Shown: positions 1 through 63,471, numbered from the stretch's first letter. The stretch: 64,000 nt of DNA from Gracilinanus agilis (GCF_016433145.1 NC_058134.1:216036257-216100256); one strand, 5' to 3'. Translations and numbers: made by a program. The notes: generated by a model not told the origin, from the letters alone.

Positions 1-40
<40 letters not shown>
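1..40. repeat. (TA)n microsatellite
   Basis: About 20 perfect AT units at the window start. Confidence 0.95.
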
Positions 41-44
<4 letters not shown>

Positions 45-498
45 GAAGGGGACTGCCCAATGTTTTTTTTGTGTAAAAAATCACCAAGTATTTGGTTTTC
101 TTTTGTTGTAAAAATTGTTGCCATTTCCCACCCCCCTTGTGTTGATGTATATACCCTTCATTTTATTGTGATTGTAAATTTATTTATGTTTATTATGATC
201 CATTGGGGAGACTGGACTCCCAAAGGATCACAGGGGGGAATATGCATTTTAAAATGGCTCTGAGTCCTGGGAGACTACATCTCTTTGTGGGAAGTGTCTG
301 AGGAAAGTATAAGAAGAAGAGAGAGTGAGAGTTTTGGTGCCTTTTTACCCCAGAGTGCCCTCCACCCCCACCCCACCCCCCTGAGGATGGAGGAGTACTT
401 CTGGAGAGCCTAATTTCCCTAACCTTTCTTTACTTTTACTACCTAAATAAAACCTAGTTAAATACCCCCAGAAACTAGCCTGACTTTTTTCAACCTCA
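41..498 (+). mobile_element. Probable ERV LTR (partial or solo)
   Basis: TATAAG at 308-313, AATAAA at 446-451 and a T-rich U5-like end in CA, i.e. an LTR-like layout. Boundaries approximate; no TSD confirmed. Confidence 0.4.
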
Positions 499-1675
499 AG
501 ATACTAGCCTACCCTCCAAAGGGCTCAATTTCCCACCAGGGCTGGGGGCTTCCCCAACTACCTTCATTCCCTTCCTCTGGCTTCCCTACTTTCTATTCCC
601 TTCCTTTCTCCCATCCTTCTTGCTTCCTTCTTTCAACCAAACAGGGTCAAACTAAGAGCTGGGCTTACTGAGAAAGGACTTTAATACAATGGGAAAAGCT
701 ACTAAGACAAATAAGTGTACTCAACATTTGACTATGTCTACCAGTCCCACCCAAACTGGGGTCACCAAACAATTCAAGGTCTATTGTTCAGTCTGAAACA
801 GGTGTGCCTGGTATTTCCTTCAGGGTGAGTTCTCAAGGGGCAGGGGCAAATTTGAAACTGGCAGAAGACCCTGTTGACAGATCAATGCTGTGAATTGGTT
901 CTAAGTCAGAAGAGTGGCGAGGGCTAGGCAATGAGAGTTAAACGGCTTGCTCGTGGTCACACAGCTAGGAAGTGTCTGAGGCCATAGGACCTCCAGTCTC
1001 CAGTTCTGGTTAAGCTACCCTGCTTGTCCCTACTAGTTTCTTTCTATGACTGTATTTTCCCACTAGAATATAAGCTCCTTGAGGTAGGAACTGTCTTTTT
1101 TTGCTTGCCTTTTTGTCATAGCACAGTAGCTGGCATATATTAAGAGCTTAATAAATGCTTTATCTAATAAATTCAACTTTCTGCCACATGGCAACCCTTT
1201 GAAGACTTGATTACAGCTATCATGTTCCTCCCAATTCTTTCTCTAAGATAAACATCCACAGTTCTTTCATTTATGCCCTTCTCTTGAGGCTGCCTAGCCT
1301 AGGTATGTCCTTCCTGTGTGACTGAGACTGTCTGCTTCAGTTTTCTCAACTGGAAAATGGGGATAATAATATCTGCTTCCCAGGGCTGTTGTGAGGATCA
1401 AATAAGATAGCATCCAAAAAGTAGTCTGCAAATCTGAAAAACCCTCTAGAAAACTTAGTCTTGCTATCATTAGTCCTAAACAATGGTGCCCAGAATTGAA
1501 TATGGCAGAGGCCATTCCAGATGGGCAGGGCAGACAAAGGGGCAGCAGCACCATCACTGCCTGCCTCTTTCCTGACACTCGACCAAAAATCTAGCCCTAA
1601 GGTAAAAGTGATGCCCAGCAAGGGTCACGGGTCAAGTGTTTCAAGCCCCAAGGAGGCTAGAGTATTGGGACTGCA

Positions 1676-2020
1676 GGAGAAGGGAAGGAGAATGGGGGGA
1701 AAGGGTGGAAAGGGGTGAAGAGGAAGGAAAAGAGGAGGAAGGGAAGGAGGGAGGCGAAAAAGAAGAGGAAGAGTAGGGAGGGGTGAGATAAGAGAGGTGG
1801 GGATGATGGAGGAGGGAACGAGGAAGGAAGGTCCAGGGAGAGAGAACTGAGACAGGGAAGAGTGAGATAAAAGAGGAGGGAGGGTAGGAGGAGGAGAGGG
1901 GAAAGAGGGATGAAAGGGAAAGGAGGAGGAAGAGAAGACTAAAGATGGGGAGAAGGGGAAGAAGAGGGAGGGAAGAGGAGAAGGGAGGGTGGAAGAGGAG
2001 GAGGAAGAGAGATGGAGGAG
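1676..2020 (+). repeat. Polypurine (GA-rich) low-complexity tract
   Basis: About 345 bp that are almost all G/A, with GGA/GAA/GGGA units, directly upstream of the CpG island. Confidence 0.9.
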
Positions 2021-2029
2021 GGGCGGATA

Positions 2030-2450
2030 GCCCCGAGCTTCCTTTTTCCCTCCTCCCACATCCTCTTCGCCACGCTGACGCTGACGTCTCACGCGCGTGT
2101 CCGCTGCTGCCGGCGCGCCGGGACGTGCGTGCGTCGACGTGACGTTCTTTGTCACAAGGTGCAGGCTAGGGAGGGCGGGGCCAAGGGGCGGGGCCCGAGG
2201 CCGCCCGAGCGAAGGGGAGAGGGTGTTTCCCGAGCACGCGCCTCCGGGCCAGGGCCGGTGACGTCGAGCACGAGAACGCGCGCGCGTCCCCGGTGCTCGC
2301 TCCCTGCTCCTGCTCCTCCTCCTCTCCCACTCCCCCCAGACTGTGCTGAGGTCGGGGCCGGGTCCCGCGGCGGAGGTGAGTGTGGGGGACGCGGGCAGCG
2401 GGCCGCGGCGGAAGGGGAGCCCCCTCCAGCCTTCTGCGCCCCCCAAACCC
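2030..2450 (+). promoter_or_regulatory. JOSD1: JOSD1 CpG-island promoter with CRE/ATF-like sites and GC boxes
   Basis: Dense CpG. TGACGTC at 2082-2088 and 2259-2265, TGACGT at 2140-2145. GGGCGGGG at 2173-2180 and GGGGCGGGGC at 2185-2194. Confidence 0.8.
2270..2375 (+). other. JOSD1: Putative non-coding first exon of JOSD1 (start approximate)
   Basis: Near-consensus donor GAG|GTGAGT at 2375/2376 inside the CpG island. TSS not determinable from sequence. Confidence 0.55.
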
Positions 2451-2469
2451 ATCTAGAGGGGACGGGAGG

Positions 2470-3120
2470 CTTCGGAGAGGAGGGGGCTCAAGATGAGGGG
2501 ATCCCTTCTTATAAATCTCTTGGGGGACTGAGGAACGAAAGGATCCCCCCTCGAAGGCCCATGGGGGCCAGAGTACGACAGAATCCCCTGTCTGTGGGCT
2601 CTTGAGGGGTCAAGGATGAGGGGATCTTCCTCTGTGGCTCGTGGGGGCTGAGGTCGAACAGACCTCCCTCTGTGGGCTCATAGATGGCTCAGGACAAGAG
2701 GTTCTCCCTCTTTGGGTTCTTGGGGATAACGAAGATGTTGAGATTCCCCTTTGGGGCTGAAGACGACGAAGGAGTCCCCACCCTGTGGGCTTATGGACCG
2801 GATGAGAGGATCCCCTCAGTGGGTCTTGGGGAACCGAGGGCGAAAGGACTTCCACTCTGTGGGCTTGTGGGATTGCTGAGGATTGAGGGGATACCTTCTG
2901 AAAGCTCACAGGGGGCTCAGGATGAGAAGATCTCTCTATGAGGACTCAGTCTCTAAGGGCTGGGAGAGGAATTGAGGAATGAGGGGATCCCCCTTTGGGG
3001 GCCCATAGGGGCTGAGGACAGGGGGAATCTCCCCCTTCTAAGGCTCTTGGGAGGCTGAAGATGATGGAATCCCTCCTTAGAAGAGCTCTGTTGCAGGGTT
3101 GAGGACTAGGGAGTCCTCTC
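2470..3120. repeat. Degenerate ~40-bp minisatellite, about 16 units
   Basis: Recurring unit approximately GGGGCTGAGGATGAGGGGATCCCCCTCTGTGGGCTCTTG; recognisable unit starts near 2487, 2527, 2567, 2608, 2645 and 2686. Confidence 0.7.
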
Positions 3121-4296
3121 AGTCTGTCGTCGTCCCCCCACCCCCCAGGTTCCTTTGGAGGGATTTATGTATTCTGTGGGATTTCCTTCCCCCTTCTAAA
3201 TTGTGCACCCCCTACGTGTAGCTGAGTTATTTAGGAGATCCTGAAAAGAAAGGGATTCCTGCCCCCCCCCCCAACTCCCCTTTGGCAGCTTTATGCTCTT
3301 TGAGGGGTGGAGGCTAAAATGCCTTCTCCCCTTGGGTATCATCCTCATGGCAGGGGCCCTGAACCTTGGAGTGAGAATGATTTCTTCCCTCTCCACCTGG
3401 TCCCCATCCCCCGGTAACCGCCTGCTTTACCGAAGGGATCCCTGACCTGGGGATTTCTCCTGCCAATCCTGGGATCTCCCTGCCCAAAACCTTGCCCTAG
3501 GGGCAGGGCGTGGGGTTTGCCCCAGCAATCCTGTTAGTTCTTCCTGCTCTCCTACTTCCCTGTTGGGCTTTGTCCCTAGCCCCCATCCCCCTTTCCATCT
3601 CTGACCCTGGCTTCTGATCTGTGCTTGGCTTCTGGTCTGTTTGTCTGGCCCTGTTTGCTGGCTTCTGGTCATTTGCAAGCAACTTGTTGTCAGGGATGCT
3701 GATTGGAGTTCCTCTCTTCTGCAGGGCCCTAGGAGGAGCCCCAAGGAAGGCATCTCGGTCTCTCCTGGCTGCCTATGCGGCGCTGCCCTCTTCCACCTTG
3801 GCATGTGTTGGGCGGCATCTTGCAGCTCCCAAAGGGATGGAGCCCTGCCCCCAAAGGCAAGGGTGCGGTCCCTGAGGCCTTGGGCCACCACCTGCTAGCC
3901 TGACCTTGCTCCCTTTCTCATTCACTGAGGGAGATGGAAGAAAAAGAGAGATGTGATCCAGCCCCCTTGGCTGCCTTCAATTGAAGTTCACTTGTTCTCT
4001 AAGGCAAGGAAGAAGACAATGGTCCTGGGTTCTGGACATTTTTTTGGTATCCAGCACTTTAGCTGTAGAGATAATGGCAAAATAAACTGAGGCATAAAGA
4101 CTTATTTTTCTACTGCAAATAGGGTTTTGGAGGGTTTTGTTACTGCTGCTGTTTCAACCTCTTCTCCGAGGGAAATCATGGCCCTTAGAGACTGAGGTGA
4201 ACCCACCAATTCCAGAAAGATCCAGGAGGCTACGTTCTTCCTTGGAGGGGAAAGGTAGGGAGCTTCAGAGGCCACCTCCTTCTGGAAAACAAAAAC

Positions 4297-4481
4297 ATGA
4301 GTTGCATGCCATGGAGAGGTGACAAGACCAAATCAGAATCATTAGAACTACCCCAGCCAGCGCCCTCCCAAATCTACCATGAAAAGCAGCGCCGTGAGCT
4401 GTGTGCCCTCCATGCACTCAACAATGTCTTCCAGGACAGCAATGCCTTCACCCGGGAAACACTACAGGAGATTTTCCAGAG
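4297..4481 (+). CDS. JOSD1: Josephin domain-containing deubiquitinase 1, coding exon 1
   Basis: [46 protein letters not shown]..., including catalytic Cys36. 185 nt, donor AG|GTAGGA at 4482, phase 2. Confidence 0.97.
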
Positions 4482-7400
4482 GTAGGAGGATTACTTTCTC
4501 ACCTGGGGTTCTTGTCACCTGGATGCTTGGGATTTCTAGTTTTCCTAGGGGAGGGAAAGGAGTGAAGATGTTTCAAATTTCCTTAAGCACATATACACCC
4601 CTAAAAATGACCCTCCCTGTCAGAAGACTAAAAGCTGCCCTGCCTGAGGACCAGAGCTCTGCCCTTTGAGTTCCTGTCTTTGGGTGTTTTCAGAGGTCAT
4701 GAGGATTATTTCGGCAGTTTTTGGATGAACCCCAAGTAACTCTGTCTGTGAGCCTATTAAAGCTTTTCAATTAGAAGGAGCTGGGCCTGCTTGGGAAGCT
4801 TAGGGACCCTCTGGGGTGATGGCCTCACACAGAAAGGGGATGCTTTGAGACCTCCCTAGTTCATTCCTTCTGAATTAGAAATGCTGCCTCATGGGGCTGA
4901 ACTCCAGCTAGGAAGAAGCACCTTCTTTCCAAGCACCATCACCTTTCTCCTAAAAAGCGGTTGCTCTCCATGGGCCAACTACATTTTAATGGGCATAATT
5001 ATTGTCTAATGTCAACAGTAACTTTATTTGTAGACTACATTGGCAGAGATCTCATTAGCCTGCATCATGGCCATTGGCAGGAGACGAGCAGAATTCCCTC
5101 CATTCAGGAGGTAAAATAACTCGCCCCATGATCACATCACAATATATGGAGGAGGAGAGAGTAGGAACTGTTCTGCTCTTGGTCCATGAAGCTGGCCAGT
5201 GTTACTGAGCACTTCCTGGTCCAAGTTATTTTGTCAGTAGATACCCCTGGAGGAGGAGAAAATAGATTAGCAGCTGCCTTTCCCATGGAGCTTTTTATTT
5301 GGCCCTGGGGAGTGACTGAAAGATTGGTTCTTTACCTCCAGCTATTAAGGACCTGACAGCAGGTGCCTCCAAAGTGGGAAGGAGGCTGTCCTGGCTGTCT
5401 GGCCAAGGTGTGTGGGAGAAACCATAGGCCCATTTCCTGTGACTGGAAGAAGAGGCAGGGAAGTGTGAGGGACTCCAGAGTGCATAAGAAAGACATCCCC
5501 TTGGAGGGACACTAGATGATGATGAGAGCAGACTCGTGTGAACAAGGTGGGATGCTTTGGGCTTTGTGGCCAGTTGGATGGAGCCTGCTTAAGTTGGACC
5601 TTTAAGAAGGGTGGAACATTTCTTACATCCAGAACCCAGTGTGGTCTGGGGTTGCGGGCACAGAAAGTGGAGCATTCAGTGTCTGAAGGGGAAGGAGGCT
5701 GAAACGAGGCTGGGGCCAGACTGTGGGGGGCAAAGGAGAGGTAGGCAGGGGAACCACGAAAGGTTGCTGAGCTTCCTAGGGACTGTTGGCATTCGAACCA
5801 GAGGTTGAAAAGACCCCAATAAAGGATGATAGGAGAGGAGCTGTGCTGGTGAAATGTTTCTGAAATCATCTGCCTGGGAAGGGAGAGTTGGAGGGCACTG
5901 ACCCCATCAATCATCGACGCTAACCCCTTCATTTTTATGGAGGAGGAAACTAGGACCCAGCAGGGGAGGGGCTTGGAAAAGAAGAGAAATCTGGAGCTGC
6001 AAGGGAGTGCAAAGACTAGGCCAACCCCCTGAGTGTGAAGAGGAGGAAACTGAGGAGAAGAGTTCCAGTGACAGGCCAGCGAGCCTCAGAGGAGGCATCC
6101 AGGCCAACCCCCTCCTTTTACAAGGGCAGAGACTAGGACCCAGAGAGCTGAGGGACTGACTCCCAAATGTAAGTGTCTTCCAGGCTTCTCTTCAACCTTT
6201 CAGGAGTAGCAGCATTATGAGAGTCTCTTTAGTTTCAAGCTAGCAGAATGTTCTTCACAAGTAGGGGATGGAAGCTTCCTTGATGGGGGCCTTGTGATGT
6301 GTTTGGTGACAGCAGGATACTTCCTAGAGGCTAAGCAGGGCAGACAAGTTCTCAGGCTTGTCACACTGACTGGAAGGACTCAGCAGACCCTCTGGCCTGT
6401 CAGCCTGAGGGCAGCTGTCCTGGGGGGGGGGGGGGGGGAATTGCCCAGTGCCCCTCTCCTGGAGTGCTTACCAGGGGTTTTCTCTAGCAATAGAGGGCAC
6501 CTCTTAGAATTGATTCCTGGGCCCCCCAGGCTGTTTGGAGAAGGGACTCCACACCATCCCTAGGACCTGGCTTGGGGCTGAGCCTAGGTGAGGCAGTCCT
6601 GTAGGGTTTGAGGTACTGAGCACAGTGCCATACTACCGGATGCTTTTGTCCAGGAATGAGATTGAGGATGCTTCCAGCTGGGCTTGATGAGTCACAAAGC
6701 ACTCCCTTTGTGGCAAGCCCTGACCTAAGGGCTGTAGGGACAGCAGCAGAAGACGGCGTCCCAGCCCCTGCGGAGCTCTTAATTAGTTGAGCAGATGAAT
6801 CTTACCTGCAGGAAACATGCAAGGTAGGATATAATTAAGTGTTAGGCTGGGAGTGCAGAAAGAACTCGGGGAAAGGGCTGAGGGACTGGCTCCCAGGTGT
6901 AAGTGCCTTCTAGACCTCTCTTCTTTAGCCCTTCGGGGTTAGCAGCATCGTGGGGGTCTCCTTAGTTACAGGTCTAATCTTGGCACTCTTGGGGAAAGCT
7001 TTTTGGAGGAGATGAAGATTTAGGTAAATCTGGAAGGAAGTTCAGGACTTGGACAGGTAAGGAGAGCATTCTAGGAACTAGGAAGGGAGCTTGAGGGACA
7101 GGGGCAGGAATGAGCCTCGTGTTTATTGAGAGAAATATGGAGGCCAGTTGTCTGCAGATGAGGAAGGCCTGTGAGATCAGGTTCCAAAGGTAACTGGGAG
7201 CTCATGACATCCCCTAAAACCCCAGCCTTCTCATTGGACTGCCCAGTGAAAGGCAGTTTAGTGTGCCCAGGAAGGCCTGTCACATCTGGCCTTGACCTGA
7301 CCACAGCTCCATCAGGCTACTCAAAGAAAGGAACCAGTGCCCACGCCAAGCTCCTGCTTCCAAGCCTAGAGGATAATTAAAAGGGCCTCACCATCCAGCA

Positions 7401-10891: not shown

Positions 10892-11070
10892 GTAACGGAG
10901 ACCAGCCCTGGCTGGCTGCAGCCTGACACTGTGTATTTACAGCTTGGTCCCTCTTAAGCCTTAGGACTGATGGCATGAGTGGGAGGTGGATGATTATGGC
11001 CATTGAAGTCCAGTAAGCTTGGGGAACAGATGGACTGTTTCCAAGCTTTGCTTCATTTCTTTTTCCTCAG

Positions 11071-11265
11071 GGATGTCAGTGTCATTGCCCTCTCTAATGT
11101 CATGGGCTTCATCATGAATCTCCCCTCTAGCCTCTGCTGGGGTCCATTGAAGCTTCCACTCAAAAGGCAGCATTGGATCTGTGTCCGAGAGGTGGGGGGC
11201 ACCTACTACAACCTTGACTCCAAGCTCAAGATGCCCGAGTGGATTGGAGGCGAGAGCGAGCTCAG
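11071..11265 (+). CDS. JOSD1: JOSD1 coding exon 3 (His139, Asp154)
   Basis: Acceptor TTTTCCTCAG|, [64 protein letters not shown], donor AG|GTGGGC. 195 nt. Confidence 0.97.
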
Positions 11266-11853
11266 GTGGGCCTTCAGCTTCTTCTGTTGTTGAAGCAGGC
11301 CAGTTCTGTAGGTTTGAAGGAGAAACTGGTTTCATTTTTGTTGGGGGGGTCGCGGGGGGGTGGGACAGGACTGACCAAGAAAGGAGAGGGACAGAGTTTC
11401 CATGGCTGCCTTTATTTCACTTTCCCCCCTATGCTTTCCATAAGACCATAGAAATAACTTTTAACCCCCTAAACCTTTACTTTCTGTCAGTAACAACTCA
11501 AGACAGAAAGGCAAAGGTTAGGCAAACAAGGTTAAATGACTTGCCTAGAGTTACATAGCTAGGAAGTGCATTTGAACCCAGGACTTCCTATCTCCAGGCC
11601 TGACGCTTCATCTGCTGGGCCACCTAGCTGCCCACAGAAATAACTTTAAAAAATTAAAGTGGAAGCCTTTTCACTTTTTCATACTCGGCAGGCTGGATGT
11701 GAATTTTCATAATACAAATGTCTGCATAGGGCTGAGCATTTGGGGTTCCGGAAGGTACAACAAAGTCCATGTTTTAGGGAATGGGCTGCCTTAAGAGCTT
11801 GCCATCATTGCGGCCTTTCTCTTCTTTCTCATTAATTTGCCTTCTTGTCACAG

Positions 11854-20426: not shown

Positions 20427-20545
20427 CATGTCCAGCAGGATGTCCACTTTTAGCCTCAGGAGATTGTTCTCTTCTTCCAACTGCTGATTCCTTTTCCGAA
20501 GTCGCTGGGTCTCCCTTCGATCCCCACCTCCGCAGGCCCCTGACT
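20427..20545 (-). CDS. CBY1: CBY1 coding exon 3 (coiled coil)
   Basis: ESGACGGGDRRETQRLRKRNQQLEEENNLLRLKVDILLDM; acceptor CTCCCACAG|, donor ATG|GTGAGG. 119 nt. Confidence 0.96.
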
Positions 20546-20631
20546 CTGTGGGAGAAGAACAGGAGCCATAAGGGTCCATTCCTCTCCCTCCCCACAGGGA
20601 GGGGTCCTAAGGGGCAGCCTATGCTCCTCAC

Positions 20632-20737
20632 CTGCTATCCACTGGCCATTTTCAAACTTGAGGCTCTGCCCAGCCAGGTTCATGGTTGGAGTGCCATAGT
20701 CCAATCCTAACTCAACTTCTCGAGTGGATCTGTCCAG
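20632..20737 (-). CDS. CBY1: CBY1 coding exon 2
   Basis: LDRSTREVELGLDYGTPTMNLAGQSLKFENGQWIA; acceptor CCCTCACAG|, donor CAG|GTGAGG. 106 nt. Confidence 0.97.
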
Positions 20738-22823
20738 CTGTGAGGGCAAAAAGAGCAGAGACCAGCTCAAGTGTGAGCATAGATCCTATCCTGGCTGCCA
20801 CCCTGAGTACTTCCCTCCAGAACAGATGGCCTAATGGACAGTTTCAGAGTAATTCAAGGGCAGGTCCTGGTTCTGCAACTCCACCCTGGTGTCCTCTGGG
20901 CCGCAGCTTCCTCAATCAGAGATCTCTGACAATTTCAGACCTGTTCTGATGATCAAATGAAATCATGGATGTAGGCAGCTAGATGGCACAGTAGATGGCG
21001 TGGCAGGCATTGAGACAGGACGATCTGTTTCAAATCTAGATTCGAACATTTTCTAGGTGTGTGACCCTGGGCAAGTCACTTAACCCCATTTGCCTAGCCT
21101 TTGCTGGCTCTTCTGTCTTAGAACTAATACTAGGACAGAAGGTAAGGGTTTATGGGGGAAAAAATCATGTATGTGATGGACCACAAAGATGTTTTGGGGT
21201 TATCATCATCTTTGGAAGGCCTTGGGGTGGCTGCCAAGATTTTAGGCCCAACTCTTTCTTCTCTTTTTAAATGTAATGACTGCTTTCTGAATAATTATAA
21301 CCTTCTCTCCCCACTGATAGGACAGGGCTTTCTAATCATGGCTGTCCCTTTTGACCTGCCTTGATCCTCCCAACACTGAGGCAGCAACAAGCTTCCTATC
21401 TTTGCCACCATTCTCAGGTAAGGAAACCAAAGCTCACACAGTTAATGACTTCCCCAAAGTCATAAGGTTAGCTCATATTCCTCTTCTAGCTCTCTAGACT
21501 CCCCCTCCCCTCTTGGCCCTTCTAAGTATCCCCTTTCTCTTGACTTTGTATTTATTGACTTGGGTTATAAGCCTCCTATAGAATGTAGCCTCCCTAAAGG
21601 CAGGGATTGTTTCCTTTCTTGATCTTTGCATCCCACATGTCCACTTACAAAAGTCACTTAAATTTTCAAAAACTGAAATATGGCCGTTCTCAGAGAGTTC
21701 TCAGAGAACTATACATGCTACACACTATTCCATGGCAGGTTTTCCTGTGTAAACTGAAACTCTCCAAATTGAATCATATTTAAAATGCACCACAGAGCTG
21801 GTAAATGAAAGGAATCCTACATGGAAATGAATACTCTGGCACGGAAAACCCCTCTTTTTAAAAGCAATTAACTTCCCTCTAATTGAATATTTATGAATCT
21901 AGCTATAATTTGTTTGTTTGTTTGTTTTTCGCTTATGATGGAAATATTTCATCCAAAATGATTTTAGGTCACCTTGATCTGTGCCTCTTGGCACACAGTC
22001 TAGGTTCAGAGAAGTATTTGTGGAGCCAAGTGGGTACCATGCTAAGTAAAGCAAGCAGTCCATACTCTTAATGCCAGAGAAGCCAGGTATATGTATGTAC
22101 AGATACACACATACGTACATGTTCATACGCAAACATATACAGGTGTATACTTTCACTCATATAGCCAAACACAGATTCAAGGCCATTTAAGAGGGGGTGG
22201 GCAGCACTAGCATCTGAGGGGAGAAATCAGGAGAAGTCTCATAAAGGAGGTTAAATTTAGCAGGGGACCTTTAAAACATGGTGCCCCAGAATTGAGCAGT
22301 GTCCCTAGTGTGGTCTGCCCAAGGCAAGGAATAGTATGGCAGGCCTCAATATCCTCTCCAGTAAGCTTGGAGGACTTGCCAAGGTCAAGGGTAGGGTCTG
22401 CCTCCTTCTATTGCAGGGGCCCAAGAGCTCCCTGTCTTATTAGCCTGCTGAAAACAGGGGGTTGGTGGCACTTGGACCAGAGCCTCCTGGTCAGTAGCCC
22501 CAAGGACCCTCTATCAAAGGCCCCTGACCTCTACAAAGCATGGTTACCTCCATAACCTCTGCTCTTTGGCTGGCCCTCTGACCTAGTTTCCTTGGGTTCA
22601 TTGGTCCCTCCTCTGGCTATCTTCACCCTACAGCCTCAGGGGATTTAATGGGTTGTCAGATGTGCTAAGTTCATGCAGTTGATAACTTCCCTCCCCCCAT
22701 CCTGTCCTTGGGTAACAGTTTTCCTAAACAATGCTTTTATAGAATATGCTTGTTTCTTCCACTAGGACATAAACTCCTAGAGAACCAACTGAACGGATTC
22801 CCTCTGAATTTGTTCTTCTAGAG

Positions 22824-34024: not shown

Positions 34025-34740
34025 CTGTGTAACCCTGGATAAGTCCCTTAATCCTGATTGCCTAGACTTTGCCAGGAAATCTTAGAATTAATGCTATAAT
34101 AAAAGGTAAAGTAGAAAGTAGAAAAGTAGAAAAAGAAAAAAACATTTCTGAAGAGTATATAGGTTTTCCCAGACAAACACCCAAAGGTTAAAAGTCCGGG
34201 TCTGTACTATAGTCTAAGTACTCCATTTTACTGATGAGGAAACTAAGGCCTACAAGTTGATATAATTTGTCTGTGCAATAATGCACAGAATCATGGGAAA
34301 TTCAAATCCATACCTTTAGATTACAAAGTCCAATTCTTTTCTGCTTATTACATATGCTCCACTGCTTTGGAGCTGAGGGTCAAGAAGAAGAGATAGGCCT
34401 AAGGCCATTGTTTTAATGTCCCCTTGCCTCCTTTCACCTCCATTTTTGTTTTTTTCTGAACTTGAAGGAATCTTGGAGATCTTCTATGTCCAGTGATCAC
34501 ATTTTATAGAGTAGGAAAATGAGGCCCAGTGCCATGAAGGGGCTTGTCCAGGGTCACATCCCTAGGTTGAAGTGGCCCCTGGATCCAAGGCGAGTTTCTT
34601 GCTTCTTTTCCCAGTTGGATGACACAGTACTTCATGCCAGGCTTTCAAAGCTGAGGAGACTCTATGGATGTCCTTAGCTGCCCTCATGCTTGAAACCCAA
34701 ATGCCCTTGGAACTGCCCTATAACCTGAGGGAGACAACAC

Positions 34741-37700
34741 TGTTGACTGGGAAAAAACACAGAACTATTAAATAGTCAGAAAAGCCACTCTTTAATCAAG
34801 GAAAGGAGTACAGGGCCGAGTTAGGCCTCTACACAGAGCTACAAGCCAAAGCCTATGCAGAGTCTGAGGATTGAACTCTGGATGCTCTGGTCCCTAACCC
34901 CTGGGAAAGCCAACTGCACTAGATTGGACAATTCCATGGAGCCATTGAGGTTGGGAAACAAATATCTTTCTTGGGGAACTTGGGAACTGAAGATGAGAGG
35001 CATAGTTGATTGACTTTACAATGGTAACAAAGGAAAATGGGGAGTCTCAGACAGGAATAACTAGTGAGGGGCAGATGCTTTACAATGGACACAGAAAGGA
35101 AAGACCCAGCCAAAGGCTGGGCCACCTTAGTAAAGGGCTTTGGCCTAAGGGGAGAAACCATTGGGACAAAAGAGATACTTAACTTTTGAGGGGATTAGCC
35201 ATCCCCATTAAGGCCCATTGTTAGTCTGAGACTAGTGAAGTTGGACTTTCCCTCGGGGAGGAATTCTATTGTGACAAGGTTAAACCTGAGGCTTTCACCT
35301 TCAAGCTAAGTAAACTGGGGTTCATTAAATCTTTCTAGGCTACAAGTTTGGGGGCTTCTAGATTCCACGTTGACACACACCCCTTTTGGTCAAGACTGGA
35401 CATCACTGACCAAACAAACGGACAAATGGGTGATGCTATATAGGGTTGGACTCTGTCACTAATGGTGGGAAAGCCTTGGGGTACAGGTATGGGCCATTGG
35501 CATTTGGGGGCACTCCCCAATGCCCGGCGCATTGACAGTTGTGCCAGAGAAAGGTAGGCAGTCTACCCTTGGCAAATTTTTGACAACACAACATTACCCA
35601 AATCCCCCCAAAGTCTTTAGTCTCTTGAATCCAGTGAGTTCTGCTGGTGGGTCCTGATAAAATGGCTTCAGTGCCTTTTCTCTTGCTGATTCCTCCTTCC
35701 TGTAGATAGCTTCATTTGCTGTAAGGGAAAACAAGAGAAATCCATAAACACATTCTCTAACAGGACTTAATCAATTCTCAATATACTTACTCACTATGAA
35801 GATTATTCAAGATGTTAATCTTAGTCTGCAATCCCATATTCGATTAAGGTTCTACACCAATTATGAAATTCTGTAAACTACATGCTTAATCAGAAAGATT
35901 GCCTTACTCTACCAAATTAATCATATTTAAAAAAAAAAACCCTACAAACTATAGAAATATGAAGGCAAAAATAAAATGACGGGTTAATCAGGGTTTATAA
36001 ATCTGAAAGTGGCCCTTCCCTTGTTTGTGGCCAAAAATTAAAATATCATCCCATACTAAGTTAATTATTAAATATTCTATTACAAAAATCCCAAAATCAT
36101 ATTAAAAAAACTGCATGACAATTTCAGATTCAAAACAATTTTGAAAGTCAAAATTAAAAAGTCTCAAATTAACTCCAAAAATCCTCAAAATTAAAAATGC
36201 TTCTAACTTTCCTTAATTTTAAAGGTCTCACACGCCCCACTTTGGGGAGGTTGAGATGCTAGAGATTTTAAAAATTGTTTTCATTCACCTTTAACTACTT
36301 AAAACTATGATCATGCTTACTTAGACTTTTTTTTGTCCTATTAACTACCACTTTGTATGAAAGAAATAATGCTGCATCTGAGTCAGCCAATGCAAAAAGC
36401 CTGTAGATAAAAATTATTGTGAAAATAATTCTCTTGTTGTGGCAGTATCACAGGATCTCCTGATTTAACTGAGTTCTAGCCTTGACTAAATTAGTTTTGG
36501 GTACATATTTTCCAATTACCTGAGTAATTCATTGGCAATAAGGACTCATTTACCATTGGACCTGGGCCTTATCTATAGGTGATTTCATAAGTATTCCTAG
36601 GCACAAAAGCTTTTTGTAATCTCATGTTTCCTGCCTTGAAACTCCAAAATGTAAAAAATTTACTTGTACTGAGAAGCAGTTCAGCATTCTATCTGAAACG
36701 TGTTTATTTAAAATGCTGCTTAGAATCTACTATTTATATGTGAGGTTTCCCCCCTTTTTAGCACTGATATTTTGCCAGGTTTCCATATGACCTAAATTCT
36801 TCCTCCTTTTAAATCCTTAAGAAAAAGGAACCTCTTTAATTTGCTACCTCATTTAAAATGGCTAAAAACTTCTATCTGCCTTCATAATTCCTATATTCTA
36901 GGCCTTGCCTTTCTAAGGCTTCCTTCATTATGTGATTACAGAAAATTTGCTGTGACAGGAGAAAAGTGGGAAGTAACTTAAAATGAGGGAGAAAAACTCC
37001 CATAATTTGGAATATTAATGCCATGCATGAATGGCAATGATCAGCAGTCACCAGGAGAATGTGACAGAAAAGTAGCTGGGCCATTTCTTAGCCCTTCCAC
37101 ACCCTTGTGACTATCAATGACCAATTTTCCTCCATAGCTTTCTTTTCCCAATTATCTTCCCATACAATTCATCCTTAGATGGCAATTCTCTCTAACCATG
37201 CTTAGGATTCAAAATTAATTATCTTCTGTTATTAACAATCATTTCTAGGCTCTATCACTTTTTTCCTAAATTTTTCTGATACTACTTTGAGACAAACATC
37301 TTGCCATCTAGGCCTATACTGAATCTATGTTATGCTAACTTAGGAAAGCACTCTGGAATCTCTGTTGCAGATTCTCAAATCTAACTAATATTACCTTTTT
37401 AATCTCTTAATAAGGTAAAATGCTATTATATTTTAAACCTTCCCTACTTTAGCTAAATTTGGGGAATAACTCTCTTCTCTCTAGGTTCTCTATTAAAAAG
37501 GGACTTTGCTCAGGGTAAATATAATTCTCAAGGGAAATAAAATGGCCAGTTTTATGTCTGTTACAGAAATATTTCTAAAAGTCAATGAAAATGATGAGAA
37601 ATAATACTTATCTGGATTCAGTTTCTTGGGGGCTCCTCCCAATTTCCTGTAGAGATGTCTTCTTCAAGAATCCTTCAGATTCTAGGCTTTTGGCTCCATT

Positions 37701-39537
37701 TAACGCAAACCTTTTCCCAACAATGTCTTGTCTTTTTACAACAATGCAATGGCCAAAAATAAACTCTTTTCTTTTCTTCAGACCACACACAAGTTAATTA
37801 GAAAATCTTGCTCTCTGGAAACAAATAACAGCTTGACAAAAATGTGAAATTATAGTACTTTAATCAAAAAAGTTAATACCCAGAATAAAACCTCTCTCAT
37901 TACCAATATTAAAATTAACCACATTAGAATCTTAAAGTTATGAATTTCTGGACCTCCTTTTGCCTCCTGCTGGATAGTTACATATCCAGATTACCAGCTC
38001 CTGCCTCTTCAGCTTTTGGAAGGAATTAACTGTTAATACAACTTTATAGACATTATTTGCTAACATATCACCAGCATTTAGAATACCATTAGACATGCAA
38101 TATAAGCAAAACCTCACAGAACATTGAGAAGAAATGCAGAACTTAAGTTCTTAAACTTCTATGAAAAGCTCTTTCACAAAAATGTACAACCATTTAAGCC
38201 TTAAGCCATGGCATCTCAAGCCGAGAAGAACCTTTCCCTATTTTAATGGACTTAAAGCAGTTACTCAGAACTTAACACTCAGGCCCCCAAATTCCAGCTC
38301 AGTTTCCCATTCAACGTTTTCAGCCAATCATTCATGCCTCTGAACTATACTCTCCTTGCCCTTACTTTTACCACCAACACACACACACTCAAAAATTTAG
38401 TCAAGCTTGGAGCTTGTAGTCAGGTTGAACTAGACTCCCATTTTGTCCAATTTACCTTGGGATCAAATTCTGCTACCATCTGTCATCTTAGCCAAACCTT
38501 TGCCTGCACTAGATTCATATCTATATATAAGTATATATAAAATATCTCCTTTGCCGCCATTTTGTCAGGTGGTTCCTTGGGCTGCCGGCTGCCCCCACCT
38601 CCTCCAGGGGCCACAGACATGCTGTTCCCCATTCCAGCAGCCCCCGAGTGGCTCTGGATTCTGCAGCTCTCTGTGCAATCCACAAACCAATGCTTGATGC
38701 CCCCTTAATTAAAGAATGGGTCACTCCCAAATACAGGAGACTGAGTCCTTTTTCTGAGAGTCACTTACCTGGCTCCTCTGCTAACTGGACTCATGACTTA
38801 ACCCTAAACGGGCTATGTGGGTACCTCACGTCTTGGGGTCCTCCTCAGCAGGGTGGCTCAGGCAACTGGGATTTTGGAATCTTGGTGGGACCTCCATTTG
38901 TTGACTGGGAAAAAACACAGAACTATTAAATAGTCAGAAAAGCCCCTCTTTAATCAAGGAAAGGGGGTACAGGGCCGAGTTAGGCCTCTACACAGAGCTA
39001 CAAGCCAAACGCCTATGCAGAGTCTGAGGATTGAACTCTGGATGCTCTGGTCCCTAACCCCTGGGAAAGCCAACTGCACTAGATTGGACAATTCCAAGAA
39101 GCCACTGAGGTTGGGAAACTTAAATACCTTTCTTGGGGAACTTGGGAACTGAAGATGAGAGGCATAGTTGATTGACTTTACAATGGTAACAAAGGAAAAT
39201 GGGGAGTCTCAGACAGAAATAACTAGTGAGGGGCAGATGCTTTACAATGGACACAGAAAGGAAAGACCCAGCCAAAGGCTGGGCCACCTTAGTAAAGGAC
39301 TTTGACCTAAGGGGAGAAACCATTGGGACAAAAGAGATACTTAACTTTTGAGGGGATTAGCCATCCCCATTAAGGCCCATTGTTAGTCTGAGACTAGTGA
39401 AGTTGGACTTTCCCTCAGGGAGGAATTCTATTGTGACAAGGTTAAACCTGAGGCTTTCACCTTCAAGCTAAGTAAACTGGGGTTCATTAAATCTTTCTAG
39501 GCTACAAGTTTGGGGGCTTCTAGATTCTACATCAACA
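34741..39537 (-). mobile_element. Two-LTR non-coding ERV (class I-like, VL30-like), 4797 bp
   Basis: Direct repeats 34741-35375 (3' LTR, 635 bp) and 38899-39537 (5' LTR, 639 bp) with TG...CA ends. 4-bp TSD ACAC (34737-34740 / 39538-39541). PBS TGGAGGTCCCACCAAGAT (minus, 38896-38879), 17/18 to the tRNA-Gln PBS. PPT AAAAGGGGTGTG (35387-35376). No internal ORF above 100 aa. Confidence 0.95.
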
Positions 39538-39878
39538 ACACGCAGTGAGCTACAGGTTAGTCTGATGGAAAGGCCAATCCGGCTCTTGGGCTTCTGGCTT
39601 CCCCAGATTCACTTAATGGGACCTAAGACCATTGCTTCTCTGTGGGCTTTGTCAGGATCGAATAACAATGAAGATGCACTTAGCACAGTGCCTGGTGCAT
39701 AGTAGGCCCTATGGAAAGGCTAGCTCTGATTAGAAATAGTTGTTTTTTCTGCAAGGCTTTACAGCTAGTTTACAAGCCCTTTCTGTAGCCCATCCCCACT
39801 CTATATACGAAGAAGCCCCAGGGCAGCATGGTGAAGGAATTTCCCCTGAAGCAAGTAGCTCAGAAGAGGCCTTGAACT

Positions 39879-40040: not shown

Positions 40041-40409
40041 TAAAAAGAGAGGCTTTGAACCCAGACTTTGGTAACTACAGACCTTTTCCCTGTCTGATGC
40101 TGGCCTTGCTAGGGTATTTTAAATGATGAATGACGTTAAAAGCCCCCAGTCTCCCTTTAAGAGGCTCCCTATTGCCTGAGTGGCCTTCCTCATTTAATAT
40201 CTGCTGGGTCTTTTGTCTGAAGAATTAGCAGATGGGTCTTAGTTGGTCTTTTCCACCTTCTGGTTTCCCCAGATGGTCCTGAATTATTTGTGACTCCTGT
40301 CAGTTGGTGGATCAGAGAAGGGGAGGGGTGCTTTTTGTTTGTTTCTTTTATTTTTATGAAAACTTTCTGACAGTGTGGAGGAACGTGGATAGCGTTTGGT
40401 ATTGACAAA

Positions 40410-40533
40410 ATGGAGATTATCAACTTCAGCGCCATCCCCATGATCCCCCTGGATGAAAAAGTGGAGATTCCACCCTTGATGAGAAGCAAAATTCATGAAA
40501 AGTTTAAGAATTACCTGGTAGAAAACCCACCCC
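40410..40533 (+). CDS. FAM227A: FAM227A first coding exon
   Basis: MEIINFSAIPMIPLDEKVEIPPLMRSKIHEKFKNYLVENPP, resembling the remembered human N-terminus MEVINLTTLPMIPVDE...LENNPP. Kozak AAAATGG; exon acceptor CTGACAG| at 40373; ends at U12-type donor |GTATCTT, phase 1. An upstream in-frame start cannot be excluded. Confidence 0.85.
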
Positions 40534-41657
40534 GTATCTTCTGGTGATGTCACTGGTCTCTGACCATCTGGGGCTAGGGGGAGGGGTTTGGGGAGGCAGA
40601 GTCAGACCCTGGAAACATGGCCTGACTTAGAGAATTTAGGGAGCTCTTGGGACCTTCACATCACCCCAGACAAGGAAAAAGGGCTCCCTTATAAGAAGTC
40701 AGGCTTTCACGCTCTCTTTTTCTTCATTCTGGGCTTCATAGAAAGAGAAGGGACCCAAGCAGTCATCTGGTCCACATTTATGCCTTTGGGCCAGTCAGGA
40801 GGCTTCCACTGTTGGGAGACAGTTGGCCTGGGCTCAGGCACCATGTAGTGTTTATCTTCATCCAGGAAATGGAGTCAGAGAAATAAGATCTGAAGGCCCT
40901 TCCTCCTTTGCCATCTATGAGGAGACAACTTACCTCTGCCTCCCCCTCAAGAGCCACTCCCCAGGTGGGCCTCTCTCCTTGGAGGCCAATTATCACAGGG
41001 GTCCCCCTGCCTCATTTACCCTCCTCTCCAACTGCCCCTCTCATTAAATGGGACAACCCTTCCAGTGTTACCTGCTTAGATCTTTCCTGTGGAGCTCAGC
41101 CAGTCTGGGTGTCCAGACACAGGAGCTCCCATGAAGCCCTTCAGGCTCCCTTCCTCCCAGTTCAGGGAGAGGTAATATCTCTAGCAGAGCTCATCTTACC
41201 TTTGAGGCTTATTACCTCCCCATAGAGGGGAGGAAACTGAGCTTCAGGGGAGGCAAGAATGCCAGCTGGAAAGTGGTCCCAGCTCCTTGGTGACTGCCTC
41301 CTAGGTGTGGACACATGTGGCCAGCCCTCCTGCCTGCCTCTTCCTTCCCTTGTAACCAGTGGTAGCCAGACTTATCTCCTCTGCTTTTTCCCCAGTTGGC
41401 CTAAACCTGCTTCTTTTCTTCCCTTTTCATTCTGTCCAGTCTAGACAGGACTAGAGTTGAGTAGAGACTCTGGGAGAGACAGTGGTGTGGAGTCAGGAGA
41501 TAGGAGCTGTGTGGCCATGGGCCTATCTGTTGCCTCTGGGACTCAGGGGTTCATTTGCAGAATAAGGAGGTTTTACTAGGCTGGGGGGCTCAGGGAGGCT
41601 CCTTCTAGCCCAGCTCTCTCCAGTGCCATGAGGTTCTTTAACAGCCATGTCTTCCAG

Positions 41658-53196: not shown

Positions 53197-54565
53197 ATCA
53201 AATTAACAGTCTCAAAAATGAAAGGGGAAATCTCACCTCTAATGAAGAGGAACTTAAGGCAATTATTAAGAACTAATTTGCTCAATTATATGGCAATAAA
53301 TACGAAAATCTAGGTGAAATGAGTGAATATTTACAAAAATATAAATTGCCCAGATTAACAAAAGAGGAAATAGAATACATAAATAATCCCATATCAGAAA
53401 AAGAAATTGAACAAGCCATCAAGGAACTTCCTAAGAAAAGATCCCCAGGGCCAGATGGATTCACAAGTGAATTCTATCAAACATTTAAAGAACAACTAAT
53501 CCCAATACTATACAAATTATTTGACAAAATAAGCAAAGAAGGAGTTTTACCAAATTCCTTTTATGACACAAATACGGTACTCATTCCAAAGCCAGGCAGA
53601 CCAAAAACGGAGAAAGAAAACTGCAGACCAATCTCCTTAATGAACATAGATGCAAAAATCTTAAACAGAACACTAGCAAAAAGACTCCAGCAAATGATCA
53701 CGAGGGTTATTCATTGTGATCAGGTGGGATTTATACCAGGAATGCAAGGATAGTTTAAAATTAGGAAAACCAGCCACATAATTGACCATATCAACAAGCA
53801 AACCAACAAAAATCACATGATTATCTCAATAGATGTAGAAAAAGCCTTTGACAAAATACAACACCCATTCCTACTGAAAACACTAGAAAGTTTAGGAATA
53901 GAAGGGTCATTCCTCAGAATAATAAACAGTATATATTAAAAACCATCAGCAAGCATCATCTGCAATGGGGACAAGTTAGAAGCCTTCCAAATAAGATCAG
54001 GTGTGAAACAAGGATGCCCATTATCACGCCTATTATTTAACATGGTACTAGAAACACTAGAGAAGAAAAAGAAATTGAAGGGATTAAAGTAGGCAACGAG
54101 GAGGCTAAACTATCACTTTGCAGATGATATGATGGTCTACTTAGAGAACTCCAGAAAATCAACTAAAAGGCTAGTGGAAATAATTAACTTTAGTAAAGTT
54201 ACAGGGTACAAAATAAACCCACATAAATCATCAGCATTTCTATATATTTCCAGCAAAACTTGGCAGCTTAGAAAGAGAAACTCCATTTAAAAATCACTCC
54301 AGACAATATAAAATATTTAGAAATCTGTCTGCCAAGATAAACACAGGAATTATATGAACACAACTACAAAACACTTTTCAAACAAAACTAGATCTAAACA
54401 ATTGGAAAAACATTGATTGCTCATGGGTAGGACGAGCTAACATAATAAAAATGACAATCCTACCCAAATTAATTTACCTATTTAGCGCCATACCTATCAA
54501 ACTACCAAAAAACTTCTTTATTGAATTAGAAAAAATTATTGTAAAGTTCATCTGGGAGAACAAAA
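53197..54565 (+). mobile_element. L1 ORF2 internal fragment (reverse transcriptase region, inactivated) with 16-bp TSD
   Basis: KSPGPDGF-like, [22 protein letters not shown] motifs; FADD at 54117-54128; premature TAG at 53751-53753 plus frameshifts. TSD AGGAAATGACCCCTCC at 53181-53196 and 54566-54581. Confidence 0.95.
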
Positions 54566-60967: not shown

Positions 60968-62684
60968 CAGGGGTCGGCAACCTTTTTGGTCGTGAGAGCC
61001 ATAGACGCCACCTTTTTTTTTTTAATTTTTAATTTTTAAATTTTTATTTAATTAATTGAGAATATTTTTCCATGGTTACATGATTCATGTTCTTTTTCTT
61101 TCCCCCTCCCTCCCCACCTCCCAAAGCCAAAGAGCAATTCCACTGGGTTTTATAAGTATCATTGATCAAGACCTATTTTCATATTATTAATATTTGCAAT
61201 AGATTGATCATTTAGAGTCTACATCCCCAATCATATTCCCATTGCTGTATATATATATACATATATATATTTAAACATTTACTAATATTCATTTTTAACA
61301 TGGTTACATGATTCATGCTCCTGCTTTCCCCTTCACCCCCCGCACTCCCCCCACCCATGGCCGATGCACATTTCCACTGGTTTTGTCATGTGTCCTTGAT
61401 CAAGACCTATTTCCAAATTGTTGGTAGTTGCAATGGTGTGGTGGTTTCGAGTCCACATCCCCAATCATGTCCACCCCGACCCATGCGTTCAAGCAGTTGT
61501 TTTTCTTATATGTTTCCTCTCCTGCAGTCCTTCCTCTGAATGTGGGTAGCATCTTTTCCATAAATCCCTCAGAATTGTCCTGGGTCATTGCATTGCTGCT
61601 GGCACAGAAGCCCATTACATTCTATTTTACCACAGTATATCAGTCTCTGTGTACAATGTTCTTCTGGCTCTGCTCCTTTCGCTCTGCATCAGTTCCCGGA
61701 GGTCTCTCCAGTTCGCCTGGAACTTCTCCAGTTTATTATTCCTTTTAGCACAATAGTATTCCATCACCAGCATATACCACAGTTTGTTCAGCCATTCCCC
61801 AATTGAAGGACATCCCCTCCTTTTCCAATTTGTTGCCACCACAAAGAGCACAGCTATAAATATTTTCGTACAAGTCTGTTTATCTATGATCTCTTTGGGG
61901 TACAAATCCAGCAATGGTATGGCTGGATCAAAGGGCAGGCATTCTTTTATAGCCCTTTGAGCATAGTTCCAAATTGCCAGCCAGAATGGCTGGATCAGTT
62001 CACGGCTCCACCAGCAATGCATTAATGTCCCAATTTTGCCACAATCCCCTCCAGCATTCATTACTCTCCCCTTCTTTCATTTTAGCCAATCTGCTAGGTG
62101 TGAGGTGAAAAAAAAAAAAAAAAAAAAAATGCATTTCTCTAATTATTAGAGATTTGGAACACTTTCTCATGTGCTTATTGATACTTTTGATTTCTTTACC
62201 TGAAAATTGCCTATTCATGTCTCTTGCCCATTTATCAATTGGGGGAATGGCTTGATTTTTTATACAATTGCTTTAACTCCTCGTATATTTGAGTAATTAG
62301 ACCCCTGTCAGAGTTTTTTGTTATAAAGATTTTTTCCCAATTTGTTGTTTCTCTTCTGATTTTGACTACATTGTTTTTGTTTGTACAAAAGCTTTTTAGT
62401 TTAATATAATCAAAACCATTTAATTTACATTTTGTAATTTTCTCTAACTCTTGCTTGGTTTTAAATTTTTTCCTTTCCCAGAGATCTGACAAGTATACTA
62501 TTCTGTGTTCACAACGCCACCTTTTTTAAAAATGTAATTTCGTGAGAACCGTACAGTGCTCACAGTGAGCACTCCTGTGACAGCACCTGAAAAAAAATGG
62601 ACTTTATGGCTCCTGCAGAAAGAACCATATCTGGCCCTCAAAAGAGCCAGATATGGCTTGAGAGCCATACGTTGCCAACCCCTG
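60968..62684. mobile_element. hAT MITE (~210 bp) split by a nested L1 insertion
   Basis: TIRs CAGGGGTCGGCAAC (60968) and GTTGCCAACCCCTG (ending 62684); 8-bp TSD CACTGTAG (60960-60967) / CACTATAG (62685-62692). Confidence 0.9.
61019..62513 (-). mobile_element. L1 insertion with two tandem L1 3' ends, bounded by one 14-bp TSD
   Basis: TSD ACGCCACCTTTTTT at 61005-61018 and 62514-62527, the latter followed by AAAA (TTTT/AA endonuclease site). ORF2 C-terminal ORF 61627..62061. Confidence 0.9.

Positions 62685-63036: not shown

Positions 63037-63471
<435 letters not shown>

What the first reader, a model, noticed from the sequence alone, without database searches (positions are those of the whole stretch)
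34741..39537. Young, complete but ORF-less tRNA-Gln-primed LTR element: a VL30-like retroelement in a marsupial
Seen: all cis-signals are present - paired LTRs, ACAC TSD, Gln PBS, PPT, consensus splice donor CAG|GTAAGT (38769/38768) and an acceptor with a long pyrimidine tract (AG at 35720-35719). My manual LTR alignment gave 14 substitutions and 3 small indels over ~635 bp (about 2%), several of them CpG decay (terminal CGTTGACA / CATCAACA both derive from CGTCGACA). The 3.5-kb interior is AT-rich with no gag, pol or env ORF. Established: rodent VL30s are ~5-kb non-coding gammaretrovirus-like elements with 4-bp TSDs, moved in trans by helper viruses. Inference: a recently active non-autonomous family implying an autonomous helper ERV in the same genome.
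Basis: partly seen in the sequence, partly recalled or inferred. Interest (0 to 1): 0.7.

Follow-up and report, generated by a model that had tools for sequence, protein, structure and literature searches.

The report
Old marsupial freeloader retroelement copy
This is one copy of a large family of gene-less jumping elements in a marsupial genome that share their ends with a rare gene-bearing relative and likely borrowed its proteins to spread; this copy belongs to an old branch of the family, and its young look is likely misleading.

Summary
The element is real: minus strand, 4,797 bp, LTRs 2.2% apart, 4-bp TSD, tRNA-Gln PBS, no long ORF. The family-level guess holds. The interior is shared by many copies. 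24 of 29 recovered gag junctions leave gag at one point, about 60 codons in. A coding relative (G000:C11330: gag-pro-RT-RNaseH-IN, no env frame in the 1.2 kb held) shares the gag start and the post-pol region and nests among the younger non-coding copies. So the family is likely a trans-mobilised deletion derivative of a cognate, env-less, epsilon-like ERV1: more ETn/MusD-like than VL30-like. 'Young' and 'complete' are not supported for this copy. No other scored copy exceeds 87% in four regional searches. Its interior sits on a 0.10 branch in an old star radiation. It lacks about 690 bp that 30 of 30 comparable copies hold. The 2% LTR distance more likely reflects LTR-to-LTR gene conversion than a recent jump; this is unresolved. 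A really young subfamily exists elsewhere in the genome. The scan's three notes on this genome do not describe this family; Repbase/Dfam could not be checked. New member of a known kind; modest interest.

The parts
38899..39537 (-). 5' LTR (639 bp, TG...CA)
34741..35375 (-). 3' LTR (635 bp, TG...CA), 2.2% from the 5' LTR
39538..39541 (.). target-site duplication, upstream copy (ACAC on +)
34737..34740 (.). target-site duplication, downstream copy (ACAC on +)
38879..38896 (-). primer-binding site for tRNA-Gln, 17 of 18 match (the mismatch is at a CpG)
38763..38771 (-). splice-donor-like site in the leader; donor motif kept in 19 of 29 other copies hit
   Evidence: use untested
38438..38632 (-). 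gag 5' stub (about 60 codons, frame broken in this copy) ending at the family-wide junction after the W-T-K-W codons
37461..38437 (-). AT-rich filler shared by the non-coding copies, in place of most of gag and pol; no pol or env remnant detected
37688..37696 (-). junction of a ~690-bp deletion private to this copy
35376..37460 (-). post-pol non-coding region; its first ~1.1 kb is 77% identical to the region after the integrase stop of the coding relative L041 (whose contig ends there)
35719..35745 (-). pyrimidine tract and acceptor-like AG; motif kept in 16 of 23 other copies hit
   Evidence: use untested
35376..35389 (-). short polypurine tract before the 3' LTR

Best explanation
The element is one copy of a multi-copy, protein-less LTR family that shares its gag start and post-pol region with a rare gag-pol-bearing relative in the same genome and likely spread in trans on that lineage's proteins; this copy belongs to the family's old branch, and its 2% LTR distance likely comes from LTR-to-LTR gene conversion rather than a recent jump. 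Steps. SHOWN: shared interior, one shared gag junction across old and young copies, a coding relative with homologous ends, no long frame where env would lie, old-branch position, private deletion. INFERRED: (1) an ancestral env-less class I (epsilon-like) element lost most of gag and pol, with an AT-rich filler in their place; (2) the RNA kept the LTR promoter, Gln PBS, leader, gag stub (likely part of the packaging signal; analogy to MLV recalled) and PPT, was co-packaged with helper RNA, reverse-transcribed and integrated with 4-bp TSDs in the germ line; (3) co-packaging let helper and freeloader swap ends, which is why the coding copy nests among the younger non-coding copies; (4) this copy inserted in the older wave, then lost ~690 bp and had its two LTRs largely homogenised.
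For: Family: interior search 623 candidates, 40 scored, the 39 others 73-84% in their best piece. Of 29 gag junctions recovered by a motif, 24 continue into the same filler (19 by the strict pattern, 5 more by eye) and 5 run on differently, among them the coding L041. The interiors ride on several LTR subtypes. Coding relative L041: zf-CCHC, RVP, RVT_1, RNase_H, rve, MLVIN_C. Its first 151 nt are 83-93% identical to the younger non-coding copies and its post-pol region up to 98%, and it nests in their 20-row clade (100/97). Cognate RT copies are rare: 1 at 100%, 1 at 76%, the other 148 of 150 scored at 47-52%. No sense frame over 54 codons after pol in L041, or over 104 in five younger non-coding copies. 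The stub is not kept as protein: three other insertions (L002, L056, L094) show the same shifted reading as this copy, and changes among non-coding copies are spread evenly over codon positions, while comparisons with L041 lean to third positions (34 codons only). Age: best other matches are 87% (LTR), 84% (interior), 85% (leader) and 87% (3' end). LTR tree star-like, median end branch 0.083; interior end branch of this copy 0.10. Such branches predict about 67-127 LTR differences against 14 seen. None of 39 other hits spans its deletion junction.
Against: Trans-mobilisation was not assayed. L041 is cut by both contig ends, so its LTRs, PBS and last 1 kb are unseen, and its gag and pol are each split over two frames. 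L041 is 18% from this copy in the post-pol region, so it is not this copy's own helper. For conversion: the differences between the two LTRs are only weakly clustered (scan p = 0.10 for all 17 differences; 0.016-0.024 in two post-hoc subsets). Only 40 candidates were scored per DNA search, and near-identical siblings are the ones an assembly collapses. Other old-type copies also have closer LTRs than their branches predict (L002 6.5%, L003 5.5%, L098 2.7%), which fits conversion or unsampled relatives equally. This copy's LTRs carry fewer private changes than the others (0.06 vs 0.081 +/- 0.008), which could reflect a lineage that kept replicating, GC-biased conversion, or only the way the others were chosen.
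Confidence: 0.68

Rival explanations
1. Same family and mechanism, but this copy really is a late insertion: an aged, already deleted non-coding copy was re-mobilised once, which reset its LTRs; the source copy was lost or is not assembled.
For: LTR pair 2.2%, the lowest of 8 clean pairs (the other seven 3.7-5.7%); intact TSD; no secondary insertion in 4.8 kb; fewer private LTR changes than solo LTRs; L098 shows a similar 2.7%; differences between the LTRs not clearly patchy.
Against: No source or sibling above 87% among the 40 scored in each of four searches; deletion junction private; the window copy holds no N, unlike several of the younger copies.
Confidence: 0.3
2. VL30 in the strict sense: the family is packaged by an unrelated helper, for example the abundant ERV family with long pol frames in this genome.
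For: Such a family exists: many of the 150 RT hits lie in 1,195-codon open frames at 47-48% identity.
Against: The non-coding copies share 90-98% sequence and a clade with L041, not with that family; its RT is 46% from L041's. Integrases are usually LTR-specific (as argued in PMC6112702, passages seen).
Confidence: 0.08
3. A single provirus whose gag-pol-env decayed in place.
For: A gag stub is present, and the post-pol region lies where env would be.
Against: Shared junctions in independent insertions; no pol or env trace by Pfam, tblastn or nhmmer; younger copies and L041 are already non-coding there.
Confidence: 0.02

Closest known systems
Mouse ETn (non-autonomous) / MusD (helper) pair
   Same: Non-coding LTR element that shares sequence with a rarer, env-less coding relative that supplies the proteins (PMC6466679, passages seen).
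   Different: ETn/MusD are class II (beta-like) and highly polymorphic; this pair is class I, epsilon-like by RT neighbours, Gln-primed with 4-bp TSDs; mobilisation here is inferred, not shown.
Rodent VL30
   Same: 4.1-6.3 kb, no intact ORF, 4-bp TSD, LTR 436-681 bp, class I, 10 of 86 copies Gln-primed (PMC4859993, passages seen).
   Different: VL30 is co-packaged with MLV (PMC6466679, PMC4859993). Here the likely helper is a cognate element with homologous ends; its RT is only 42% identical to PERV-B and groups apart from it. Sequence kinship with VL30 was not tested.
Human HEPSI / MER4-group class I elements
   Same: Epsilon-like class I supergroup holding MER4, MER65, MER34 and PRIMA4 (PMC4724089, PMC5753468, passages seen); that many MER4-group interiors are non-coding is recalled.
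   Different: No HEPSI or WDSV reference was in my tree, so membership is untested; the human ones have LTR divergences of 13-31%.
Koala PhER / recKoRV
   Same: Marsupial high-copy LTR element without intact coding regions, recombining with a co-packaged retrovirus (PMC6112702, passages seen).
   Different: PhER recombines with an unrelated gammaretrovirus; sequence kinship with this family was not tested.

Membership tests
Non-autonomous LTR/ERV family | paired LTRs, TSD, PBS, PPT | tested here: met
Non-autonomous LTR/ERV family | no gag/pol/env coding capacity | tested here: met
   only a broken gag stub
Non-autonomous LTR/ERV family | independent insertions share the defective structure | tested here: met
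   24 of 29 gag junctions
Non-autonomous LTR/ERV family | mobilised in trans by a helper | not testable with these tools
   inferred from shared junctions and the nesting of L041
ETn/MusD-type pair | cognate coding relative sharing internal sequence | tested here: met
   L041
ETn/MusD-type pair | helper shares LTR and PBS | tested here: inconclusive
   L041 lacks its ends; gag-bearing L042 and L046 carry family LTR ends and a Gln-like PBS
ETn/MusD-type pair | helper lacks env | tested here: inconclusive
   no frame over 54 codons in the 1.2 kb after pol, but the contig ends there
ETn/MusD (the family itself) | class II beta-like pol | tested here: not met
   MLVIN_C domain and class I neighbours
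VL30 (the family itself) | MLV-type gammaretroviral helper | tested here: not met
   cognate RT groups with opossum, turtle, fish and amphibian proteins apart from PERV-B, 100/99
VL30 (the family itself) | sequence homology to VL30, PSF-binding motifs | not tested
   no VL30 sequence at hand
HEPSI / epsilon-like class I | Pol clusters with WDSV/HEPSI references | tested here: inconclusive
   nearest named proteins are from opossum (89%), turtles, hagfish and fish; no labelled epsilon reference in the tree
Recently active family (at this locus) | near-identical siblings | tested here: not met
   best others 84-87%

The most novel reading that the evidence does not exclude
A long-lived helper-parasite ERV pair in marsupials. 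A gene-less RNA lineage has outlived waves of LTR turnover by swapping ends with an almost single-copy, env-less, epsilon-like helper. Its youngest branch (leaders 0.4-0.9% apart) is still polymorphic or active: a marsupial counterpart of ETn/MusD with a far deeper record.
Probability: 0.3. Interest if true: 0.5.

Novelty: new member of a known kind. Interest (0 to 1): 0.27.

Why it matters
Non-autonomous ERV families with a traceable helper are well studied mainly in mouse. A marsupial class I example with shared junctions, a rare cognate coding copy and both old and young waves would extend that pattern and let one time helper-parasite recombination. The locus is also a caution that LTR-pair dating can mislead. 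It is likely already catalogued as an anonymous opossum ERV1 interior in repeat libraries, which I could not check.

Tried and rejected
Pfam on 18 read-through frames of this and four other copies: 0 families at E<=1. Gag-stub peptide against the protein database, longer proteins: none; Pfam none; it was identified only through L041. nhmmer and tblastn (BLOSUM45) of L041 gag-pol against seven non-coding interiors: only the gag stub; best pol hit E 0.055. A selected micro-protein from the stub: rejected (shared shifted frame, even codon-position spread). GC-biased conversion signal (GC>AT 0.06-0.07 vs 0.098 +/- 0.015): not used as support, since the comparison set was picked by likeness to this LTR. 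L070 was dropped from the LTR-pair count (its second LTR hit aligned over only 416 columns and is not a true 3' partner). Sequencing runs: 18 listed, no RNA holder listed; no reads or contigs were laid, so orthologous-site status and expression remain open. The Genome Research opossum repeat paper (Gentles et al. 2007; id recalled) was not held. Seven literature searches listed no paper describing this family, judged from titles and abstract starts only.

Full report
1. Observation. On the minus strand the element runs from 39537 to 34741 (4,797 bp). The 5' LTR (39537-38899) and 3' LTR (35375-34741) differ by 14 substitutions and 3 internal indels, 2.2%. The TSD is GTGT on both sides. The PBS (38896-38879) matches the 3' end of tRNA-Gln at 17 of 18 bases: a pattern for that tRNA end has 10 exact genomic hits against 0 for its control, and ARAGORN calls tRNA-Gln at 3 of the 4 loci fetched. 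The PPT is short. The 3,523-bp interior has no sense frame over 91 codons and no Pfam family. The host is a marsupial by inference: the closest named protein to the coding relative is from Monodelphis domestica.

2. It is a family. In the own genome the LTR has 3,790 first-look candidates and the interior 623; 40 of each were scored. Of the 20 best other LTR hits that I fetched, 19 have no family interior beside them, and 12 of the 20 have an exact 4-bp TSD: mostly solo LTRs. Copies of the interior ride on several LTR subtypes that share only the first ~65 bases and the R/U5 end with this LTR. 30 of 30 loci holding both sides of interior position ~1205 have 641-1,160 extra bases there (median 693), and none of 39 other hits spans this copy's junction. 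So this copy is not complete: it has a private deletion.

3. The coding relative. Reading other copies showed a recurrent short frame after the leader. Searching with it gave 150 scored places, nearly all in open frames under 175 codons. One, G000:C11330 (L041), continues into gag (zf-CCHC), protease, RT, RNase H and integrase with MLVIN_C. Non-coding copies match L041 over its first 151 nt and again after the integrase stop (from nt 5187 or 5263), and nowhere between. Of 29 gag junctions recovered by a motif, 24 go into one shared filler right after the W-P/T-K/E-W codons (19 by the strict pattern, 5 by eye), in old and young copies alike, this one included; 5 run on differently. After pol, L041 has no frame over 54 codons in the 1.2 kb held, although its gag-pol region is nearly open; five younger non-coding copies have none over 104 codons. 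Cognate RT is rare: 1 hit at 100%, 1 at 76%, and the other 148 of 150 scored belong to more distant families at 47-52%. L041's RT groups with opossum, turtle, hagfish, fish and amphibian proteins, apart from PERV-B and bird and bat proteins (100/99; 26 rows, 23 of them picked by me from the 120 listed). I read this as epsilon-like class I; no labelled epsilon reference was in the tree.

4. Mechanism. Shown: shared defective structure in independent insertions, homologous ends with a coding relative, and L041 nested among 19 younger non-coding rows in the post-pol tree (100/97). Inferred: the non-coding RNA kept all cis signals and was packaged, copied and integrated by the helper lineage's Gag-Pol inside germ-line cells. 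The nesting needs recombination between helper and non-coding RNA, as co-packaging allows. The gag stub is likely kept as RNA (packaging region; MLV analogy recalled). Three other insertions share this copy's shifted reading of the stub, and changes among non-coding copies are even across codon positions, e.g. 6/4/6, against 1/1/5 and 7/5/11 for pairs with L041 (34 codons, small numbers).

5. Age of this copy. Four regional searches found no other copy above 87%. LTRs of this type form a star with median end branch 0.083 (28 rows). In the interior tree (33 rows) this copy ends a 0.10 branch among old copies (0.06-0.12), while the younger clade has branches mostly of 0.02-0.055. Six younger copies have LTR pairs 3.7-5.7% apart, roughly in line with their branches. 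For this copy branches of 0.053-0.10 predict 67-127 differences and 14 are seen. Either the LTRs were homogenised by gene conversion, a known limit of LTR dating (PMC7251063, passages seen; plant data), or an aged copy jumped late and left no sampled source. Against conversion: clustering of the differences is weak (p = 0.10 overall), and old-type L002, L003 and L098 also have close LTRs (6.5%, 5.5%, 2.7%). I put conversion at about 2:1. A really young subfamily exists elsewhere (leaders 0.4-0.9% apart). No reads were laid, so the orthologous site in related species is untested.

6. Comparison. VL30s are 4.1-6.3 kb, non-coding, with 4-bp TSDs, 10 of 86 Gln-primed, and likely complemented by MLV (PMC4859993, passages). 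ETn is moved by MusD, its env-less coding relative (PMC6466679, passages). This family works more like ETn/MusD but is class I, so it is a member of neither. HEPSI/MER4-group elements are the human epsilon-like class I counterpart (PMC4724089, PMC5753468, passages); koala PhER is a marsupial analogue (PMC6112702, passages). Seven searches (listings only) showed no description of this family. The opossum repeat paper was not held and Repbase/Dfam are not on hand, so it may already be named. No supplements were read. The scan's three notes on this genome concern other things; one on a palindromic LTR-end insertion resembles a piece at L029.

7. Verdict. A real element and a real non-autonomous family with a cognate coding relative, but this copy is neither shown to be young nor complete. 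New member of a known kind; interest 0.27.

Noticed in passing
G000:C11330 (L041) 1-6289: Coding relative: gag with zinc knuckle, then pro-RT-RNaseH-IN; gag and pol each lie in two frames; both ends cut by the contig. Closest protein is a Monodelphis domestica entry at 89%.
   Followed up: partly
L076-L080 (G000:C3:441570000, C54585, C53599, C1:155618900, C2:95968000): Youngest subfamily of the non-coding family: leaders of L077-L080 0.4-0.9% apart, interiors of L076-L078 and L080 1.7-4.9% apart; several copies sit on ~4-kb unplaced contigs.
   Followed up: partly
many places, e.g. L049 120-3704: A different, abundant ERV1 family with many 1,195-codon open pol frames at 47-48% RT identity to L041.
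   Followed up: no
L008, L045, L046, L057, L089: Intermediate forms that keep much of gag, then join the AT-rich filler: a second deletion class.
   Followed up: no
L067 2030-6234: A non-coding copy whose interior runs into gag-pol frames of another ERV (Gag_p30, RVP, RVT_1): nested insertion or recombinant.
   Followed up: partly
   Followed up: no
window 10994-11290 +, 20459-20785 -, 63037-63471 +: Josephin, Chibby and FWWh domains. From recalled synteny (JOSD1, TOMM22, CBY1, FAM227A), the element likely lies antisense near the 5' end of FAM227A, about 830 bp before a putative coding exon at 40371-40547 (identified from memory, no Pfam hit).
   Followed up: partly
L013 (G000:C8076): Two 100% identical 4.9-kb copies joined at a single N: likely an assembly duplication.
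   Followed up: no
window 53277-53753 +, 61627-62525: Frames that read like LINE-1 ORF2 pieces (recognised from memory).
   Followed up: no
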